This document shows, in pieces, positions 1-8,140 of a stretch of DNA of 34,947 bases. Numbering within the stretch: the first letter of the stretch is position 1; each line of letters starts with the position of its first letter. Made by a program: the position numbers and the translations under genes. The stretch comes from a virus: UHGV virus genome UHGV-0108399. One strand, given 5' to 3'. Below the pieces are notes generated by a model that did no database searches, had not been told where the DNA came from, and was given only the letters and a program-made list of their open reading frames with translations.

Positions 1-1161
1 TTACCTCGTATTTAAGTAAACTACGTTCTCCTCTTGTGCCGTATTTGTGCCATTGCGACTTATAATCGCATCGATTTTGCTCGCGTGCTCGGTGAGATGC
101 CCAGCTGAAAGGTGGGCGTATCTTTGAACCATTTCGAGAGTTTCCCATCCTCCCATCTCTTTAAGTGCAAGAAGAGAGACACCGGACTGAACCAGCCAGC
201 TTGCCCAGGTATGCCTCAGGTCATGGAAGCGGAAGTTGCTAATGCCTGCCCGCTTTAACGCTCCCTTCCATGCCTTGTTGCTGTCGGTTCTCATCTTCCT
301 TACCGCTGCTGTTTTTGTTCCGTCGCTTCGGTAGGCAGGTTTGGTGTGGACAAATACCCATCTCTTATGGAGCCCCTGCTGTTTTCTTAATATCTGGCAT
401 GCGGTTTCGTTAAGAGGAACTCCGATCGCATTGCCAGCTTTTGTTTCATCAGGGTGCATCCATGCCATTTTCTTATCCAGATCGACCTGTGACCACTCAA
501 GGTCTGTAACGTTGGAACGGCGAAGGCCTGTCGTGATTGCAAACATGACCACAGGGAAGAAATGAGGAGCAATTTCTGCAAACAGGCGCTTCGATTCCTC
601 CTCTGTAAGCCATCTGATGCGTCCATTCTTAACGCGTGGTGTTGATATTTTGGGTGCCCTGTCAAGCCATCCCCATTCAACAGCCATATTGAGAATGGCG
701 CGAAGTATTGCCAGATGCCTCGTCTTCGTTCCTTTGCTTGCCAGCTTTGGTTTATACTCCGGCACCGGATTGCCAAGTCGCAAACACCTGTCCCGGCTCA
801 TCTCCCAGTTCAGGCGATGGCGGCGGTTTTCCATCCCGTCTACCGCCTCCATTATTTTTTCTGTTGTTATGTCAGAGAGAATGGCTTCTCTGAAGTGCAA
901 CATCCAGAACGATATAATGCTCTTGTCATCATCAATGGACTTCTTATCCGATTTCTCACGCAGCCACCGTATGCAGGCTTCCTTGAATAGCTTTTTCGGT
1001 GATTCCCCGAGATTTTTTACTCTCCACGCTTCTGCTTTCAGACGATCGTGAAGTTCTTGCGCTTGCCTTTTGTCCGATGTTTCAAGAGAGCGTCTAACTC
1101 TTGATCCATCTGGCGCGACGAAATCGCAGTGCCACGTGCCACCGCGTAGTTTGATTGACAT
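1..1161 (-). CDS. int: Tyrosine recombinase / phage integrase (P22 Int-like)
   Basis: 386 aa; C-terminal catalytic motifs (HDLRHTWASWLVQ ... MVQRYAH) typical of tyrosine integrases; N-terminus resembles P22 Int; stop codon at window position 1-3. Confidence 0.9.
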   Translation of the reverse strand: MSIKLRGGTWHCDFVAPDGSRVRRSLETSDKRQAQELHDRLKAEAWRVKNLGESPKKLFKEACIRWLREKSDKKSIDDDKSIISFWMLHFREAILSDITTEKIMEAVDGMENRRHRLNWEMSRDRCLRLGNPVPEYKPKLASKGTKTRHLAILRAILNMAVEWGWLDRAPKISTPRVKNGRIRWLTEEESKRLFAEIAPHFFPVVMFAITTGLRRSNVTDLEWSQVDLDKKMAWMHPDETKAGNAIGVPLNETACQILRKQQGLHKRWVFVHTKPAYRSDGTKTAAVRKMRTDSNKAWKGALKRAGISNFRFHDLRHTWASWLVQSGVSLLALKEMGGWETLEMVQRYAHLSAGHLTEHASKIDAIISRNGTNTAQEENVVYLNTR

Positions 1162-1385
1162 GCTTTAACCTCCTGCACATCAACCGCATTCACCGCGCTA
1201 TTGTGTCTCACAGACTTAAGCGCCGCAATGCAGTCTGACTTGCAAATGCGATATGGGCTTTTAGGTTTATCTGGATTTATCTTTGCGGCCTGAAGTCGTC
1301 CACTTCGTATCCACTGCGTGATAGTGCCTTTGTCTACCTTCAGATACGACGCTGCCTCTTCACGAGTGAAGATTTCTTCTTCCAC
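1038..1385 (-). CDS. xis: Excisionase (P22 Xis-like, HTH)
   Basis: 115 aa directly upstream of int and overlapping its 5' end in another frame, as in P22; HTH-like segment TREEAASYLKVDKGTITQWIRSGRL. Confidence 0.75.
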   Translation of the reverse strand: MEEEIFTREEAASYLKVDKGTITQWIRSGRLQAAKINPDKPKSPYRICKSDCIAALKSVRHNSAVNAVDVQEVKACQSNYAVARGTAISSRQMDQELDALLKHRTKGKRKNFTIV

Positions 1386-1475
1386 CTGGAATCTCCATTT
1401 ATTGGATTGGTATTATTGCGGTAGGTCTGGATATCATTGAGCAATGAACAGGCCTCATCGAGTGTGAGGCTGTGG

Positions 1476-1820
1476 TTAGTCCTTGCGTAACTCGCTAATT
1501 CTTCTGTAAGTCTCTGGTGCTTTGTTCCCGTACGTCTTCATTTCAGACTTCAACAGAGCAACGAGTGAATCCCATTCGTTGAGGATTCCTTTGAATGCCG
1601 GAACGCGCTTTGCAACCTTGTCGAATGAATCTCTGATTTCTGGAATCTGCTCAACAAGTGCAACGCATCGTCTGAAATCGGCTGCGTCATGGGGAGCGCC
1701 GAAGTGATGACCATAGATATTCTTTTTCAGCCCACATGCGATTGAGGCAAGAGTTGCGCTACTGATGCCTACATCGCCAGTCGATTGCCATTTCAAAACC
1801 TTCATAGCCAAATCTGACAT
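1476..1820 (-). CDS. Hypothetical protein (114 aa; alternative start at 1847)
   Basis: ORF with GGAGA RBS about 6 nt before the ATG at 1820; the longer track ORF (start 1847) begins inside the upstream terminator hairpin. Confidence 0.5.
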   Translation of the reverse strand: MSDLAMKVLKWQSTGDVGISSATLASIACGLKKNIYGHHFGAPHDAADFRRCVALVEQIPEIRDSFDKVAKRVPAFKGILNEWDSLVALLKSEMKTYGNKAPETYRRISELRKD

Positions 1821-1834
1821 TTCTTGTCTCCAAT

Positions 1835-1862
1835 AAAAAACCGCCATCAGGCGGTTTGGTGT
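1835..1862 (-). terminator. Intrinsic terminator-like hairpin with T-run (AAACCGCC-TGAT-GGCGGTTT-TTTTATT)
   Basis: Perfect 8-bp stem and 4-nt loop followed by T-run on the minus strand; overlaps the stop codon of the small ORF 1847..2014. Confidence 0.5.
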
Positions 1863-2014
1863 TCTTTCAGTTCTTCAATTCGAATATTGGTTACGTCTGC
1901 ATGCGCTATCTGCGCCCATATCATCCAGTGGTTATAGCAGTCGTTGATGTCCTCTGCTTCGATAACTCTGTTGAATGGTTCTCCATTCCATTCACCTGTG
2001 ACTCGGAAGTGCAT
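1847..2014 (-). CDS. Small hypothetical protein (55 aa, MHFRVTGEWNGEPFNRVIEAEDINDCYNHWMIW...)
   Basis: Hand-translated ORF below the track size cutoff; GGAG RBS 7 nt upstream of ATG; TGA stop lies in the loop of the terminator hairpin. Confidence 0.35.
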   Translation of the reverse strand: MHFRVTGEWNGEPFNRVIEAEDINDCYNHWMIWAQIAHADVTNIRIEELKEHQTA

Positions 2015-2132
2015 TTATCATCTCCATAAAACAAAACTCGCCGTAGCGAGTTCAGATAAAAGAAATCCCCGCGAGTGCGAGGATTGTTATTCATTGCCGA
2101 TATTCACCTTTATCGCGAACATCTTTACCGGT

Positions 2133-2375
2133 TTATCTCCTTTGCATAGCACGTAATTTTTTCAGATGGTTCTCCTGTTCTGTTTCAGCCAGGATCTGGT
2201 GATATTCTCTGTGATCAATGTGTTCGAATAAATTATTGAATTTTCTGATGCACACTCTTCCAGGATAGCCATCCATCCTCTTGAAGAATACTGAGTGATC
2301 AGTACTACGAATGATTTTTACTGGATAGCCAGCGCTATCGGTGTATATCTGACCACGTTGAATCAGAGAGAACAT
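2133..2375 (-). CDS. Hypothetical protein (80 aa)
   Basis: Track ORF in the leftward early operon; no recognisable domain. Confidence 0.45.
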   Translation of the reverse strand: MFSLIQRGQIYTDSAGYPVKIIRSTDHSVFFKRMDGYPGRVCIRKFNNLFEHIDHREYHQILAETEQENHLKKLRAMQRR

Positions 2376-2441
2376 TCGTTTATCCCCAGATAAAAATATA
2401 GCAATACCAATTACATAAAATACTTCAGGCCAAGCATCATT

Positions 2442-3089
2442 TCACCCCTGCGGCGGTTCTGGCAGCGGCATCCAGTGTGATGGTATCCACGACGCACCAG
2501 GTATTACCCACCCATCATTAGCGTCAGGATGCCCCGGGATGTAAGTCGCCCATTTCATTCGCCAGTCACCTTTCCTGTCAAACTCCCTGGCAACAAGAAC
2601 GGCTGTTTTGGTATCCGGCATTCGCTCACTACAGCTTATCCAACCATCCGGAGTTACCGGATAGTTGCCAGCCAGCTCGTTCAACTTGTAAGTCTGGCTT
2701 ACAGGTTCGGCACCATGAAGCATGGCGGCACGGCAGGCATTCCAACCATCAACATAATCAAACGTATTGCCATCGTCTGGCTCGATTTCATCCGGCACTA
2801 CCGGCGCTGGTTGGGCGGTGACGTTGGAAAAGGCAGCACGCAACCCTGTCTTAATTTCCTCTACCTCATCAGCGCCTGGCGATGAATCTGACAGTGCGTG
2901 ATGGAATGCGTAAGCCATGTCGTCGTTGATTTCTACAGGCACACTATCAGCTTTGCGACGCTCCTGTAGCTCGCGCAGAGCCGCTGCAACATAATGACTA
3001 TTGTGCTGGTCAGCCCACAGAATGAGCCGAATCAACGTTGCATTTGAAACGTATTCGTCTGTTAGTTTGCTATTGGTAAAAATGGTCAT
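2442..3089 (-). CDS. DUF551-domain protein (Eaa-like early accessory protein)
   Basis: 215 aa; C-terminal W-rich region (WISCSERMPD ... WRMKW ... WMPLPEPP) resembles the DUF551 signature of lambdoid Eaa proteins; start overlaps the stop of the upstream gene (ATGA). Confidence 0.6.
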   Translation of the reverse strand: MTIFTNSKLTDEYVSNATLIRLILWADQHNSHYVAAALRELQERRKADSVPVEINDDMAYAFHHALSDSSPGADEVEEIKTGLRAAFSNVTAQPAPVVPDEIEPDDGNTFDYVDGWNACRAAMLHGAEPVSQTYKLNELAGNYPVTPDGWISCSERMPDTKTAVLVAREFDRKGDWRMKWATYIPGHPDANDGWVIPGASWIPSHWMPLPEPPQG

Positions 3090-3601
3090 GCCGCGTTTCC
3101 TTCTTTCTTATTAACAATTACACCGTCATATATTTCATTAAGGTGCCCTCTCAACTCCATGCGCCTTAATGCAGATAACATGTAATCGCATTCAACCTGC
3201 TTATTTCCAGTAAATGGCTTATCGTCAGGATTACCCCAACAGCAATTACCCTTGGGCCACCCATGTACTTTCCGTACTCTTCCGTTAACAACGTGAAGTA
3301 ATCCCCAGCCAGGTGGTAAATCCTCAATTGAAATAATTCCCGGCTCACTAATAAAGAATCGCCAGTCGCCCATTCCAAGAGACGGATTTTTACGAAAACG
3401 CTTTTTTCTATCTGCCAACAAGTCAGCACGAGAACATTTCGCCTCTATCAGGCATGATGCTGAATTTCTGAATCCCATAGCATCTGGCTGTTCTCCGGTA
3501 CTGGTTACAGCTATAAAGCGGTCATGAAAACAAACCTTGAACCCGTTGCGCTTAAGGAACTTGTACGCAATCTGACAGAGTTCGCGGTGTGTTAGCGCCA
3601 T
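3086..3601 (-). CDS. Putative PD-(D/E)xK-fold nuclease-like protein
   Basis: 171 aa; motif GEQPD ... CLIEAK matches the PD-x(n)-(D/E)xK arrangement of restriction-endonuclease-fold nucleases; translationally coupled to flanking genes. Confidence 0.45.
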   Translation of the reverse strand: MALTHRELCQIAYKFLKRNGFKVCFHDRFIAVTSTGEQPDAMGFRNSASCLIEAKCSRADLLADRKKRFRKNPSLGMGDWRFFISEPGIISIEDLPPGWGLLHVVNGRVRKVHGWPKGNCCWGNPDDKPFTGNKQVECDYMLSALRRMELRGHLNEIYDGVIVNKKEGNAA

Positions 3602-3602
3602 A

Positions 3603-3842
3603 TCACTCTCCTTTGATGCCAGTGTTTAGAACCTGACAAGCCTCTTTGAGCACCCAGTCAACAGCGTCTTTCCATGCTCCGGTTTCGGCTGGCGGATTCT
3701 CACGTTTTACCTGCTCATAGAAGCGCACTGCTTGAACCAGTCCTTCCGGCACTACTGGCGATGGCTGTTTAGCTTCTAAATCAGCAATTCTGTCAACCAC
3801 GGCATCGACAAGCTCTCTGTTAGTCATTCTTTTTCCGCTCAC
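3603..3842 (-). CDS. Hypothetical protein (79 aa, GTG start)
   Basis: Track ORF; start overlaps the stop of the upstream gene (GTGA). Confidence 0.45.
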   Translation of the reverse strand: MSGKRMTNRELVDAVVDRIADLEAKQPSPVVPEGLVQAVRFYEQVKRENPPAETGAWKDAVDWVLKEACQVLNTGIKGE

Positions 3843-4342
3843 TGGTTGCCTCCTTTGCGAAGCTCTGCAGCGAAATATACAGCTGCGGAAACAATAGCTG
3901 CATGTCGGTATTCACCATCAGAAAATAAAGAATCTCCCTTAAGTGCATTGACGATACTCTGATGATTTTTTGCCAGCATCTCCACGCCCTGCGCCCGTAC
4001 TTCAGCCAGAAAAGCATCGGTGGCGGGGGTGTCTGATTGCAGAGACTTTGCGCGATAGTCATTCCACCCTCTTGCATACATGTGATTAACTTGCACTCCA
4101 TCTTTTACGCAATATGCCTGCCCTCCACGGTTGATAACCTTGATTTCGTCCATAGCGCCAGACTTCAGCCCCGCATTCTCCGCTGCCAGCGCCGCGCACT
4201 TGGCCTGCGCTTCAGCAAATTTACGCACCAGATATTCAGCGTTTGTTTCGTTAACCTTTAAATCACTTGGGATGCATTTACCTTTCAGGAATCCATCCAT
4301 CTCAATTAGTGACATTTGTTTCATTTCTTCCCACTCCGCCAC
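3839..4342 (-). CDS. Hypothetical protein, coiled-coil N-terminus (possibly Ead/Ea22-like)
   Basis: 167 aa in the early-left accessory region; family assignment is a guess from composition and position. Confidence 0.5.
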
Positions 4343-4485
4343 ATCGCATTCAGATATTTGTTTTGATTTACTGATGGAAAAGAATTTCTCTTAAGCAATT
4401 CCTCTCTCGATGGCATTGGCTTTACGCGTTGGCGAATAATCATTTCTGCCGGAAGAATGCCGGGATTGTATGCAAGTCCTCTCAT
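4321..4485 (-). CDS. Small hypothetical protein (55 aa, [34 protein letters not shown]...)
   Basis: Internal ATG of track ORF 4321..4635 with GAGGA RBS, located just after the stop of ORF 4496..4789; the upstream part of the track ORF overlaps that gene in another frame. Confidence 0.3.
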
Positions 4486-4495
4486 GGTAAATTCC

Positions 4496-4789
4496 TCAGT
4501 CATTACTGATAGCGCCATAGCGTGAGCGGTAATTACGCAGGCGCGGGTCAATTTCAGGGAAGTGGGTATATGTGGCTTTGCGGAATGGTCGGATTGATGT
4601 CTGGTAAATTCGCTCGCGTTCTTCTTTCTCTGCAAGCCATATACAATGGCGAAATTCCTTTTCCTCTTTCGTTTCCTGCGGTAGCGACATTATCCGGTTG
4701 TAGTTTTTCCTGAATTTATCCAGCACCTCCGATACGGAATTGCCGGAACAGCGGCGCGCGTCATCCGCACCATACAGAGGCGCTGGCAT
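4496..4789 (-). CDS. Hypothetical protein, 97 aa; possible Abc2-like anti-RecBCD protein
   Basis: Strong RBS AGGAGAAAATC-ATG; lies immediately downstream of the recombination module (ssb, SSAP), the position and size of P22 abc2. Assignment is by synteny and size only. Confidence 0.5.
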
Positions 4790-4802
4790 GATTTTCTCCT
4801 GA

Positions 4803-5309
4803 TTAAATTGCGTGAATAGCGTGACGAGGGAAGGGGAGAGTTACTGGTGCAAAGGGTATATCGTCGTCAAAATCCATCGGAGGTTCGTTGTGTTGTGCTG
4901 GTGATGATTGCTGCTGTGGCTTCTGTGATTGCCTGCTGGCTGCTTGTTGTTTGCTGTCGCCAATGCCGCCAAGCATTTGCATCACGCCATTAATTCCGAC
5001 ATGAACCTCGGTTGTGTAACGGTCTTGCCCTGACTGGTCTTTCCACTTTCTGGTTCTCAGCATTCCCTCGAAATAAATCTGATCACCTTTTTTCACATAC
5101 TGCCCCACGACCTCAGCCAGTTTCCCGGATACAGCAACACGATGCCATTCAGTCAATTCCTTTTGCTCGCCAGTATTTTTATCTCGCCATTGTTCTGACG
5201 TGGCTATTGTCAGGTTAGCGAACGCTGTTCCTGATGGTGAGTATCGAACTTCCGGGTCTTGTCCTACCCGACCAAGGATAATCACCTTATTTACGCCTCT
5301 GCTTGCCAT
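4803..5309 (-). CDS. ssb: Single-stranded DNA-binding protein (SSB) with 15-aa extension after the DDDIPF tip
   Basis: OB-fold N-terminus ([36 protein letters not shown]), Q/S-rich linker, conserved [11 protein letters not shown] followed by [15 protein letters not shown] before the stop. Confidence 0.85.
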
Positions 5310-6017
5310 TTATGCCGCCTGTTTTAGTTCGTTAACTCTGATGTTCATTACCTGAACGCATTTAGCCTGCGCCTCCTCGTTGCCAGCCATTAATTGCCAG
5401 TCACGCTGATAACGCTCGATGAGTTTTTTCTTGTCAGTTTCTGTTGACGCATAATCGCTGAAGTCTTTCAGGATTTGTTCGCAGTCAACCGATGGAGATT
5501 TCTGGTTGGTATTTTCTGGTGATGGTTTGTTATCTGATGCTGGGATTGCCCATCCCGGCAGCGATGGAGGGAGCCAGCAAAATCCTGTTCCATCCTTCAG
5601 TTTTGCCCTGTGCCACCCCTGCTTTTTATCGAGAGATGTTTGTGCGAAACCTTCCTCAAGGTTATACAGATACCGACCGATTCCCCACTGAACGGCAGCA
5701 CGCTTCATTGCACCTGAACGACCACCTTTGACGGCTTCTACCTGCGTGTTTTCAGCAGCATCCCATTTGGTTACCCATTCGGAATCAATCTTGATTGATA
5801 TGCCGCATTCAACTCCGCCGTTGTTGGGAATATCGCGGTATTCATTGCGCCATCCTGCTTTGCCGCAAACATCGTCCAGGCGTTTCATGATTGCCCTGTT
5901 CGTGACATAAGCCAGCACCATAGCCCACACCTTTCCATCGCGTGTTTTACCGCTTTGCTGTATTCGCCATTCGATATCTTCAGGGCTGAATGGCTCATCG
6001 AATTTGTTCAAATCCAT
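5310..6017 (-). CDS. Rad52/22-family single-strand annealing recombinase (SSAP)
   Basis: 235 aa; conserved core (VECGISIKIDSEWVTKWDAAEN ... AMKRAAVQWGIGRYLYNL) resembles the Rad52/22 phage recombinase family; sits between kil/cIII and ssb where lambda has bet and P22 has erf. Confidence 0.65.
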   Translation of the reverse strand: MDLNKFDEPFSPEDIEWRIQQSGKTRDGKVWAMVLAYVTNRAIMKRLDDVCGKAGWRNEYRDIPNNGGVECGISIKIDSEWVTKWDAAENTQVEAVKGGRSGAMKRAAVQWGIGRYLYNLEEGFAQTSLDKKQGWHRAKLKDGTGFCWLPPSLPGWAIPASDNKPSPENTNQKSPSVDCEQILKDFSDYASTETDKKKLIERYQRDWQLMAGNEEAQAKCVQVMNIRVNELKQAA

Positions 6018-7756: not shown

Positions 7757-8140
7757 TCATCTCGCCGTCAGTTGTTTTGATTTCCGGTAGCCTGCCGCGT
7801 AAATGGCTACGTTTGGAAGACATACACCAGTTTCTGGTTGCTTATGTCCAAACTCATTCGCGTACACAATGGCCGCTCGCTCCAGATTGCGTCTGTATTC
7901 TTTCTGTTGCCAGATCACGTCCTGTGCCATGAACTTAATTGGCTTAGCGTCTTCTATGCGCTCAGGCGTTTCGTGAGTACCTTTAGCCTGAATCTGCGCT
8001 CTGCTTAGAGTAGGGCGGTGTAATACTTCTGAACTTATTGCTTCTTCGCGGGCCAGTACGCCGTTAGCTAATGCCTTTGCCTTTAAACGCTCACGACGAC
8101 GAGAACGTGAATTGCCTTTGAACTGAGTTCTGCGTGTCAT
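7757..8140 (-). CDS. N: Antitermination protein N (P22 gp24 / phage 21 N type)
   Basis: Arginine-rich motif near N-terminus (GNSRSRRRERLKAKALANG), C-terminus AIYAAGYRKSKQLTAR; AGGAGG RBS; first gene downstream of pL and nutL. Confidence 0.75.
   Translation of the reverse strand: MTRRTQFKGNSRSRRRERLKAKALANGVLAREEAISSEVLHRPTLSRAQIQAKGTHETPERIEDAKPIKFMAQDVIWQQKEYRRNLERAAIVYANEFGHKQPETGVCLPNVAIYAAGYRKSKQLTAR

What the first reader, a model, noticed from the sequence alone, without database searches (positions are those of the whole stretch)
1476..2014. Terminator-embedded small gene followed by a 114-aa gene next to xis
A 55-aa ORF with a good RBS ends with its stop codon in the loop of a terminator hairpin; the next gene's RBS and ATG follow immediately after the T-run. 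The organisation (small gene, terminator, second gene) near the attachment-site end is reminiscent of moron or two-gene toxin/antitoxin-like cassettes, but nothing in the sequences identifies the function.
Basis: inference. Interest (0 to 1): 0.35.

Follow-up and report, generated by a model that had tools for sequence, protein, structure and literature searches.

The report
Lambda orf55, phage-434 ORF114, terminator joints
The two small genes and the hairpin are real, but they are near-identical copies of phage lambda orf55 and phage 434 ORF114 (function still unknown), two independent genes at the end of the early leftward operon that are separated by terminator-like hairpins where related phages swap gene modules, and they are not a toxin/antitoxin pair.

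Summary
All features lie on the minus strand. A 55-aa ORF (2014..1847) has a GGAG ribosome-binding site, and its TGA stop forms the first three bases of the loop of hairpin AAACCGCC-TGAT-GGCGGTTT. A T6 run, a second GGAG and the ATG of a 114-aa ORF (1820..1476) follow, then xis and int.

It is not new. The 55-aa protein is 95% identical to lambda Orf55 (lambdap35). GenBank M60848 (phage 434) annotates ORF55, ORF114 and terminators t-L4 and t'-I at this locus. In lambda the same stop-in-loop hairpin sits directly before the pI/cII box and xis.

Both ORFs are under purifying selection (pN/pS 0.25 and 0.08) and give confident AlphaFold2 models.

They are not an obligate pair. In 5,426 complete E. 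coli genomes ORF55 occurs in 2,445, ORF114 in 940, and the intact junction in 471. No toxin/antitoxin or defence family matches, and no promoter-like site was found.

The hairpin/T-run/ribosome-binding-site units are mosaic joints: five alternative modules follow the ORF55 hairpin. The window encodes an N antiterminator, so the hairpins probably act as N-suppressible terminators.

ORF114 belongs to a large unannotated phage early-gene family with no structural relative in the PDB.

Verdict: already known, low interest.

The parts
1847..2014 (-). orf55: a 55-aa acidic protein (pI 4.9), the homologue of lambda Orf55/lambdap35 and phage 434 ORF55 (PHROG 676). Predicted fold is strand-strand-helix-strand with a disordered last 5 residues.
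   Evidence: 95% identical to lambda NP_597778. PHROG 676, E = 5e-39. pN/pS 0.25, with polymorphic sites 19/9/40 by codon position. AlphaFold2 pLDDT 91. pI.
2022..2025 (-). Shine-Dalgarno GGAG of orf55, 7 nt before the ATG.
   Evidence: Read from the sequence.
1835..1857 (-). Intrinsic-terminator-like hairpin AAACCGCC-TGAT-GGCGGTTT plus a T6 run. The orf55 stop TGA (1849..1847) is in the loop. It is the same element that precedes pI/xis in lambda, and it is a mosaic joint.
   Evidence: Terminator scan. Fold z = -3.05. Lambda comparison. Variants, including one compensated pair. Five alternative downstream modules. Identity drops sharply after the T-run.
1828..1831 (-). Shine-Dalgarno GGAG of ORF114, inside the junction motif TTTTATTGGAGA.
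   Evidence: Sequence. The same motif is found at other cassette starts.
1476..1820 (-). ORF114: a 114-aa basic (pI 9.2) all-alpha protein, the homologue of phage 434 ORF114 (PHROG 1229). It belongs to a large unannotated phage early-gene family.
2064..2085 (-). Hairpin AATCCTCGC-ACTC-GCGGGGATT plus a T-rich tail, equivalent to the tL4 terminator annotated in the HK022 and 434 records. It is also a mosaic joint.
2034..2053 (-). Second hairpin GAACTCGC-TACG-GCGAGTTT plus TGTTTTAT, immediately before the orf55 ribosome-binding site. In about 35 of 78 loci it directly precedes ORF114 instead.
1415..1473 (-). Frameshifted fossil of the first ~20 codons of an HTH-type excisionase. It contains the T-less inverted repeat 1470..1452.
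   Evidence: Translation, and comparison with the intact xis that follows the Cronobacter ORF114 homologue.
1038..1385 (-). xis (excisionase, HTH_17), GTG start. This is the next functional gene downstream.
1..1161 (-). int (tyrosine integrase, 386 aa).
7757..8140 (-). N-type transcription antiterminator, at the head of the same leftward operon. It is expected to let RNA polymerase read through the hairpins.
   Evidence: Pfam PF25694 N_peptide, E = 2e-15.

Best explanation
The region is the distal end of the N-dependent early leftward (pL) operon of a lambdoid prophage.

What is there:
- It carries two independent, conserved accessory genes, lambda-type orf55 and phage-434-type ORF114.
- Each is built as a cassette: a terminator-like hairpin, a T-run, AT(T)GGAGA, 7 nt, then the ATG.

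What the hairpins most likely do:
- They most likely act as intrinsic terminators that stop unmodified RNA polymerase and are read through by N-modified polymerase. ORF114, xis and int would then be made only from antiterminated pL transcripts.
- Because the orf55 stop codon lies in the loop, a ribosome finishing orf55 would cover the hairpin. That should further weaken termination on actively translated transcripts.
- The same hairpin/T-run/ribosome-binding-site units are the short conserved joints at which lambdoid phages exchange modules. This explains why orf55 is followed by ORF114, by one of several xis/int types, or by another small gene in different phages.

What the proteins most likely are:
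- Orf55 is a small acidic protein whose strand-strand-helix-strand fold is of the kind seen in small phage-encoded inhibitors of host proteins.
- ORF114 is a basic all-alpha protein from a large phage early-gene family.
- The biochemical target of both is unknown.

Shown here: identity, coding status, independence of the two genes, the mosaic joints, and the presence of N.
Inferred: terminator activity, N-dependence, any ribosome effect, and the protein functions.
For: Identity:
- 94-96% DNA identity to HK022, 434 and mEp phages. The annotations read 'ORF114 | ORF55 | terminator' and 'tL4 terminator'.
- Lambda lambdap35 is 95% identical, and its hairpin abuts the pI/cII box and xis.

Coding status:
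- pN/pS is 0.25 for ORF55 and 0.08 for ORF114. Variation is concentrated at third codon positions.
- Divergent homologues show pS 0.73-0.80 against pN 0.17-0.30.
- AlphaFold2 pLDDT is 91 and 94.

Independence.

Joints:
- The last 40 nt of orf55 are 96-99% identical across 96 contexts.
- Only 30% of pairs are alike immediately after the T-run.
- Five downstream classes follow the hairpin.
- ORF114 is joined either to the orf55 hairpin or to the tL4 second hairpin through TTTTAT(T)GGAGA.
- The Cronobacter ORF114 homologue ends in the same GCCGCC-TGAT-GGCGGC-T6 element.

Hairpin selection: the 434 variant GGAGG is mismatched, and it is compensated to GCCTCC/GGAGG in L108.

Antitermination: N is encoded in the window, in the same operon orientation.

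Ribosome effect: terminators placed a few bases after a stop codon are almost completely repressed in vivo (PMC4824070).

Literature on the proteins:
- Lambda Orf55 is uncharacterised. It was modelled as Gp2-like (PMC8614690).
- It lies in the region implicated in blocking host replication initiation (PMC9239242).
Against: - No transcript 3'-end or termination data were available, so terminator activity of this hairpin rests on sequence features only.
- Its G-C core is short (5 bp). Some natural variants weaken it to about -7 kcal/mol (GAC and AAC codons, and the phage 434 mismatch), so selection on the structure is not strict.
- The 434 GenBank record annotates t-L4 and t'-I but not this hairpin.
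- Breakpoints at gene ends could simply reflect selection against disrupting genes rather than any role of the hairpin.
Confidence: 0.7

Rival explanations
1. A two-gene toxin/antitoxin-like cassette: acidic Orf55 neutralises basic ORF114, or the reverse.
For: - The charges are opposite: pI 4.9 and net charge -6 for ORF55 against pI 9.2 and +3.8 for ORF114.
- Both genes are small and adjacent.
Against: - The genes are not an obligate pair. ORF55 is in 2,445 complete E. coli genomes, ORF114 in 940, and the junction in 471.
- 66 of 83 ORF55 loci lack ORF114, and about 35 of 78 ORF114 loci lack ORF55.
- Divergent homologues in Klebsiella, Citrobacter and Cronobacter never occur together.
- Neither protein hits Pfam, NCBIfam or PADLOC.
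- There is no promoter-like site.
- A terminator-like hairpin separates the two genes.
Confidence: 0.03
2. ORF114, or the orf55-ORF114 pair, is a classical moron: an autonomous transcription unit expressed from the repressed prophage for the benefit of the host.
For: - ORF114 is present in some otherwise similar phages and absent in others at the same site. In 4 loci a 71-aa gene occupies that slot instead.
- It is bounded upstream by a terminator-like hairpin, and in 434 downstream by t'-I.
- It lies near the attachment-site end of the prophage.
Against: - No sigma-70-like promoter match was found in 1-6000, against 7.9 +/- 3.2 expected from shuffles.
- It has the same orientation as the pL operon and continues directly from it.
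- In this window there is no T-run terminator after ORF114. The repeat at 1470..1452 lies inside a fossil xis.
- Distant family members sit among early phage genes, not at prophage ends.
Confidence: 0.12
3. orf55 is not a functional protein gene. Only the hairpin and the adjacent regulatory DNA are conserved, and the ORF is incidental or acts only as a leader whose translation gates the terminator.
For: - The 3' 40 nt of orf55 are more conserved than the rest.
- Many database chimeras keep only the C-terminal ~23 codons plus the hairpin.
- The last codons are shaped by the stem.
Against: - pN/pS is 0.25, with polymorphic sites 19/9/40 by codon position.
- The Klebsiella copy keeps 75% amino-acid identity although synonymous sites are near saturation (pS 0.73).
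- The length is a constant 55 codons in 109 copies.
- The AlphaFold2 model is confident, and only the last 5 residues are disordered.
- It has a good ribosome-binding site.
Confidence: 0.04
4. Orf55 is a T7 Gp2-like inhibitor of host RNA polymerase, as proposed in the literature.
For: - Published modelling (PMC8614690).
- The protein is acidic and made early.
- R45, the counterpart of one critical Gp2 arginine, is nearly invariant.
Against: - The same fold is shared by p56, AcrIE2 and Dmd, which have unrelated targets.
- The second critical arginine is Asn in Orf55.
- There are no binding data.
Confidence: 0.12

Closest known systems
Phage 434 int-xis region, GenBank M60848 (ORF55, ORF114, terminators t-L4 and t'-I), and the equivalent regions of HK022 and the mEp phages
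   Same: - The gene order is the same: tL4 hairpins, ORF55, stop-in-loop hairpin, ORF114, then the fossil xis segment.
- DNA identity is 94-96%, and ORF114 is 96% identical at the protein level.
   Different: - Downstream, 434 and HK022 continue with the t'-I hairpin, the lambda-type pI/cII box and lambda-type xis/int. The window instead joins to an HTH_17-type xis (GTG start) and a 386-aa integrase.
- The 434 copy of the ORF55 hairpin carries a mismatch, GGAGG.
Phage lambda orf55 (lambdap35, NP_597778) and the hairpin upstream of pI
   Same: - The protein is 95% identical.
- The stop-in-loop hairpin is the same (GCCGCC-TGAT-GGCGG-T6).
- The tL4 hairpins upstream are the same.
   Different: Lambda has no ORF114. 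The T-run runs straight into the cII box of pI and into xis.
Morons, and the mosaic module boundaries of lambdoid phages (concept from the HK97/HK022 comparative genomics; from my own knowledge)
   Same: ORF114 is a variably present accessory gene bracketed by terminator-like hairpins, and the exchange points fall at gene boundaries.
   Different: No promoter of its own was detected. It lies in line with the N-dependent early operon.
T7 Gp2 and other small phage inhibitor proteins (phi29-type p56, AcrIE2, T4 Dmd)
   Different: There is no sequence relationship, non-inhibitor proteins give better fold matches, and no target is known.

Membership tests
Lambda Orf55 family (PHROG 676) | Sequence match over the full 55 residues to lambda lambdap35. 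| tested here: met
   52 of 55 residues identical. PHROG 676, E = 4.7e-39, covering positions 1-55 of the 55-position profile.
Lambda Orf55 family (PHROG 676) | Position at the distal end of the early-left operon, after the tL4 hairpins and before xis/int. | tested here: met
   The Klebsiella homologue also lies just before xis/int.
Phage 434 ORF114 family (PHROG 1229) | Full-length sequence match to 434 ORF114. | tested here: met
   96% identity to the M60848 ORF114. PHROG 1229, E = 1.8e-51.
Intrinsic (Rho-independent) terminator | G+C-rich stem, short loop, and a U-run directly after the stem. | tested here: met
   8 pairs (5 G-C), 4-nt loop, T6. Free energy -13.1 kcal/mol, z = -3.05.
Intrinsic (Rho-independent) terminator | Transcripts actually end at the U-run. 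| not testable with these tools
   No transcript 3'-end data. The papers behind the annotated lambda/434 terminators were not held in the library.
Type II toxin-antitoxin pair | The two genes co-occur as an obligate pair. | tested here: not met
   Genome counts are 2,445, 940 and 471. Locus surveys agree, and divergent homologues occur separately.
Type II toxin-antitoxin pair | Homology to known toxin or antitoxin families, or to defence systems. | tested here: not met
   No Pfam, NCBIfam or PADLOC match.
Type II toxin-antitoxin pair | Toxicity of one product that is neutralised by the other. | not testable with these tools
   Needs expression experiments.
Moron | Present in some related phages and absent in others at the same site. 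| tested here: met
   ORF114 follows the ORF55 hairpin in 17 of 83 loci. A 71-aa gene or a xis follows in the others.
Moron | Own promoter that allows expression from the repressed prophage. | tested here: not met
   No sigma-70-like match in 1-6000. This was a consensus scan only, so weak or non-sigma-70 promoters are not excluded.
T7 Gp2-like RNA polymerase inhibitor | A specific structural match to Gp2. | tested here: inconclusive
T7 Gp2-like RNA polymerase inhibitor | Binding to the RNA polymerase beta-prime jaw and inhibition of sigma-70 transcription. | not testable with these tools
   Only a published speculative model exists (PMC8614690).

The most novel reading that the evidence does not exclude
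ORF114 may represent a large phage early-protein family with a specific, still undiscovered host-directed activity such as host takeover or anti-defence.

- The family has at least 2,846 clusters at 50% identity.
- It has no Pfam or NCBIfam model.
- Its all-alpha fold has no relative in the PDB.
- It carries an invariant signature, W...SS...P-x-D-x2-D-x2-R-C...P...W.

A second possibility is that the stop-in-loop hairpin/T-run/ribosome-binding-site units are translation-gated attenuators that also serve as portable cassette junctions in lambdoid early operons.
Probability: 0.25. Interest if true: 0.5.

Novelty: already known. Interest (0 to 1): 0.2.

Why it matters
This locus lies in the least understood stretch of the lambda-type early operon, the exo-xis region, which affects the lysis-lysogeny decision and host replication. 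Parts of it are carried by about half of all complete E. coli genomes.

Showing that the pair is not a toxin/antitoxin system, and is the known orf55/ORF114 arrangement, saves follow-up effort.

Two modest leads remain:
- The terminator-like hairpins with embedded stop codons mark the exact points where modules are exchanged.
- ORF114 belongs to a very large phage family that no curated database describes and that has no known fold relative. That makes it a reasonable target for functional screens.

Tried and rejected
Literature and library look-ups:
- The search for ORF55/ORF114/434 returned only unrelated viruses.
- PMID 6305007, cited for the 434 terminator, and the lambda ribosome-profiling paper PMC3718152 are not held. 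Direct evidence for termination or translation could therefore not be read.
- The search for tL3/tL4 gave nothing relevant.
- 'ORF55' in the anti-defence preprint 10.1101/2025.06.06.658234 is an unrelated DNA ligase from phage DruSM1.

Database searches with no result:
- Rfam gave no credible RNA family in 1-6000.
- Pfam, NCBIfam and PADLOC gave nothing for either ORF.
- PDB sequence search with a diverse ORF114 profile found nothing; the best E-value was 1.5.
- The BFVD viral structure library returned only uncharacterised phage proteins.
- The afdb50 fold library was not available.
- Pfam on ten longer fusion proteins gave only one informative fusion, a CCA-adding enzyme plus HD domain. One case is too few to infer function.

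Ideas considered and rejected:
- The 123-aa form of ORF114 starting at the loop ATG. The T-run length varies from 5 to 8.
- The inverted repeat at 1470..1452 as a terminator. It has no T-run and lies within a fossil xis coding segment.

A first breakpoint calculation anchored on the T-run end was distorted by T-run length differences. It was redone anchored on the stop codon.

Full report
**What is in the sequence**

All features lie on the minus strand.
- A 55-codon ORF runs from the ATG at 2014 to the TGA at 1849..1847. A GGAG precedes it by 7 nt.
- The last three sense codons and the stop are embedded in hairpin AAACCGCC-TGAT-GGCGGTTT (1857..1838), with the TGA as the first three loop bases.
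- A run of six T follows, then ATT-GGAG-ACAAGAA-ATG, which opens a 114-codon ORF (1820..1476).
- The terminator scan calls the hairpin (8 pairs, 5 G-C). It folds better than shuffles: -13.1 against -6.7 +/- 2.1 kcal/mol, z = -3.05.
- Two stronger hairpins with T-rich tails lie just upstream of the 55-aa ORF, at 2085..2064 and 2053..2034.
- Downstream come an HTH_17 excisionase and a 386-aa tyrosine integrase.

**What it is**

- The 761-bp region is 94-96% identical to phages HK022, 434, mEp043/213 and many Stx phages.
- GenBank M60848 (phage 434) annotates exactly these features as ORF55, ORF114, terminator t-L4 and terminator t'-I. X51962 (HK022) annotates the tL4 terminator.
- Lambda itself carries the 55-aa gene (lambdap35) at 95% protein identity.
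- In lambda the same stop-in-loop hairpin (GCCGCC-TGAT-GGCGG-T6) runs directly into the cII box of pI and the start of xis, with no ORF114.
- The proteins fall in PHROG 676 and PHROG 1229, both of unknown function. Neither matches Pfam, NCBIfam or PADLOC.
- The window also encodes an N-type antiterminator (PF25694), SieB, a cI-type repressor, Abc2, a Rad52-like recombinase, SSB and Q.
- The two ORFs are therefore the last accessory genes of an N-dependent early-left operon, just before xis and int.

**Are the ORFs real genes?**

- Among 66 distinct orf55 sequences, polymorphic sites fall 19/9/40 by codon position, and pN/pS is 0.25. For 62 distinct ORF114 sequences the figures are 13/9/40 and 0.08.
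- Against a Klebsiella orf55, pS is 0.73 and pN 0.17.
- Against the Cronobacter and Citrobacter ORF114 homologues, pS is about 0.8 and pN 0.17-0.30.
- AlphaFold2 models are confident. Orf55 has pLDDT 91 and a strand-strand-helix-strand fold in which only the last five residues are disordered. ORF114 has pLDDT 94 and seven helices.

Both are protein-coding. The disordered tail of Orf55 corresponds to the codons that form the 5' arm of the hairpin. The last codon is always GCC, and the penultimate residue varies among A, T, S, D and N.

**Are they a pair?**

No.
- In 5,426 complete E. coli genomes, orf55 is found in 2,445, ORF114 in 940, and the intact orf55-hairpin-ORF114 junction in 471.
- In 83 IMG/VR and reference loci carrying orf55, the sequence after the T-run falls into five unrelated classes:
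  - the lambda pI/xis module (30 loci);
  - an AlpA-like xis with a P4-type integrase (26);
  - ORF114 (17);
  - another xis (6);
  - a 71-aa small gene (4).
- In 78 loci carrying ORF114, about 43 have orf55 and its hairpin upstream. About 35 have ORF114 joined directly to the second tL4 hairpin (...GCGAGTTTTGTTTTATGGAGACAAGAAATG), so orf55 is precisely absent.
- The Klebsiella orf55 homologue and the Citrobacter and Cronobacter ORF114 homologues each sit just upstream of xis/int without the other gene.

This independence, together with the lack of any toxin, antitoxin or defence-family match and of any promoter-like site, rules out the toxin/antitoxin reading for practical purposes. The opposite charges of the two proteins (pI 4.9 and 9.2) are the only point in its favour.

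**The hairpins as joints**

- Anchored on the stop codon, the last 40 nt of orf55 are 96-99% identical in all pairs of 96 distinct contexts. In the first 20 nt after the T-run only 30% of pairs are alike.
- The same unit recurs at other cassette starts: a hairpin with the stop in or next to it, a T-run, then (A/C)TTG or ATTGGAGA.
  - It precedes the Cronobacter ORF114 homologue and the gene after it.
  - The Cronobacter ORF114 homologue itself ends in GCC-GCC-TGA-TGGCGGC-T6, the element that ends orf55 in lambda.
  - The Klebsiella orf55 ends with its stop in a 6-nt loop.
- The tL4 first hairpin behaves the same way. At least five unrelated upstream sequences, each with its own hairpin, converge on the same T-rich tract.
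- Some selection on structure is visible. The mismatch in phage 434 (GGAGG) is compensated in one relative (GCCTCC/GGAGG). Other variants weaken the stem to about -7 kcal/mol, so the constraint is not strict.
- After ORF114 lies a frameshifted fossil of the first ~20 codons of an HTH excisionase. The intact version follows the ORF114 homologue in Cronobacter. This suggests that ORF114 once travelled with that xis/int module.

**How it most likely works**

- By analogy with the lambda pL operon (established knowledge), the hairpins are intrinsic terminators. They stop unmodified polymerase and are overridden by N-modified polymerase, which restricts ORF114, xis and int to antiterminated early transcription. 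The window does encode N.
- A ribosome terminating at a stop codon inside the loop would cover the stem. In vivo, a terminator placed a few bases after a stop codon is almost completely repressed (PMC4824070). This hairpin should therefore terminate mainly untranslated or uncoupled transcripts.
- These steps are inferred. No transcript-end data could be consulted.

**Protein function**

- Lambda Orf55 is uncharacterised. It has been modelled as T7 Gp2-like (PMC8614690). It lies in the segment implicated in blocking host replication initiation (PMC9239242). It was not tested in a CRISPRi essentiality screen (PMC10695390).
- An exhaustive profile search finds 2,846 cluster representatives at E <= 1e-3, of which 631 are below 1e-10.
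- Ten positions are invariant across a diverse alignment: W11, S20, S21, P43, D45, D48, R51, C52, P60 and W83.
- All named relatives are 'hypothetical'. Distant members sit among early phage genes such as Ea22, Lar, Dam, NinX, RdgC and an HU-like protein.
- Occasional tandem duplication, and one fusion to a CCA-adding enzyme, give no clear functional clue.

**Verdict**

The object is already known as lambda orf55 and phage 434 ORF114 with their terminators, and it is extremely common in E. coli. Two points of residual interest remain: the sharp module joints at stop-in-loop terminator-like hairpins, and the large unannotated ORF114 family.

Noticed in passing
window 1415-1473 (- strand): A frameshifted fossil of the first ~20 codons of an HTH excisionase (NHSLTLDEACSLLN.../ISRPTA) lies directly after ORF114. 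The intact gene (MEQYSLTLDEACAMLGISRPTATNWIKSGRLQA...) follows the ORF114 homologue in Cronobacter (L171, from position 2880). The inverted repeat 1470..1452 lies inside this fossil and has no T-run.
   Followed up: partly
window 2034-2085 (- strand); loci L005-L164: The tL4 double hairpin upstream of orf55 is itself a mosaic joint. At least five unrelated upstream sequences, each with its own hairpin, converge on TTTCTTTTATCTGAACTCGCTACGGCGAGTTTTGTTTTATGGAGA.
   Followed up: partly
window 1-6000: The sigma-70-like promoter scan found 0 sites, against 7.9 +/- 3.2 in shuffled sequence. This is an apparent depletion across the int-to-SSB stretch.
   Followed up: no
proteins P0163, P0266 and other ORF114-family members: The ORF114 domain occurs as a tandem duplicate (P0163). 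It occurs once fused to the C-terminus of a CCA-adding enzyme with an HD domain (P0266). It also occurs with various uncharacterised N- or C-terminal extensions. The family has no Pfam or NCBIfam model despite about 2,800 clusters.
   Followed up: partly
window 1847-1857 (- strand); lambda L004; Cronobacter L171/L173: The 5' arm of the hairpin encodes the protein C-terminus. The last residue is always Ala. Lambda Orf55 and the Cronobacter ORF114 homologue both end in Ala-Ala-COOH, which resembles ssrA-like ClpX recognition tails. This is an untested idea that the joint also sets protein stability.
   Followed up: no
proteins P0155, P0131, P0153, P0158, P0015, P0033, P0034: Many database proteins are chimeras that keep only part of orf55 or ORF114 fused to other early genes (the window's own DUF551 protein, Kil, Ea22, Erf, DUF550). 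This shows frequent recombination within as well as between these genes. P0155 joins at an (I/L)WAQ microhomology.
   Followed up: no
window 3086-3601 and 3839-4342 (- strand): Two further early-left ORFs (171 aa, PHROG 9263/631; and 167 aa) have no Pfam match. The 171-aa protein has only a weak PHROG hit to a 'DNA repair protein' family.
   Followed up: no
window 1818-1849 (- strand): The orf55 stop overlaps an ATG (TGATG) that is in frame with ORF114 in this window and gives a 123-aa ORF. Several database entries use it. The frame is lost in relatives with T5, T7 or T8 runs.
   Followed up: yes
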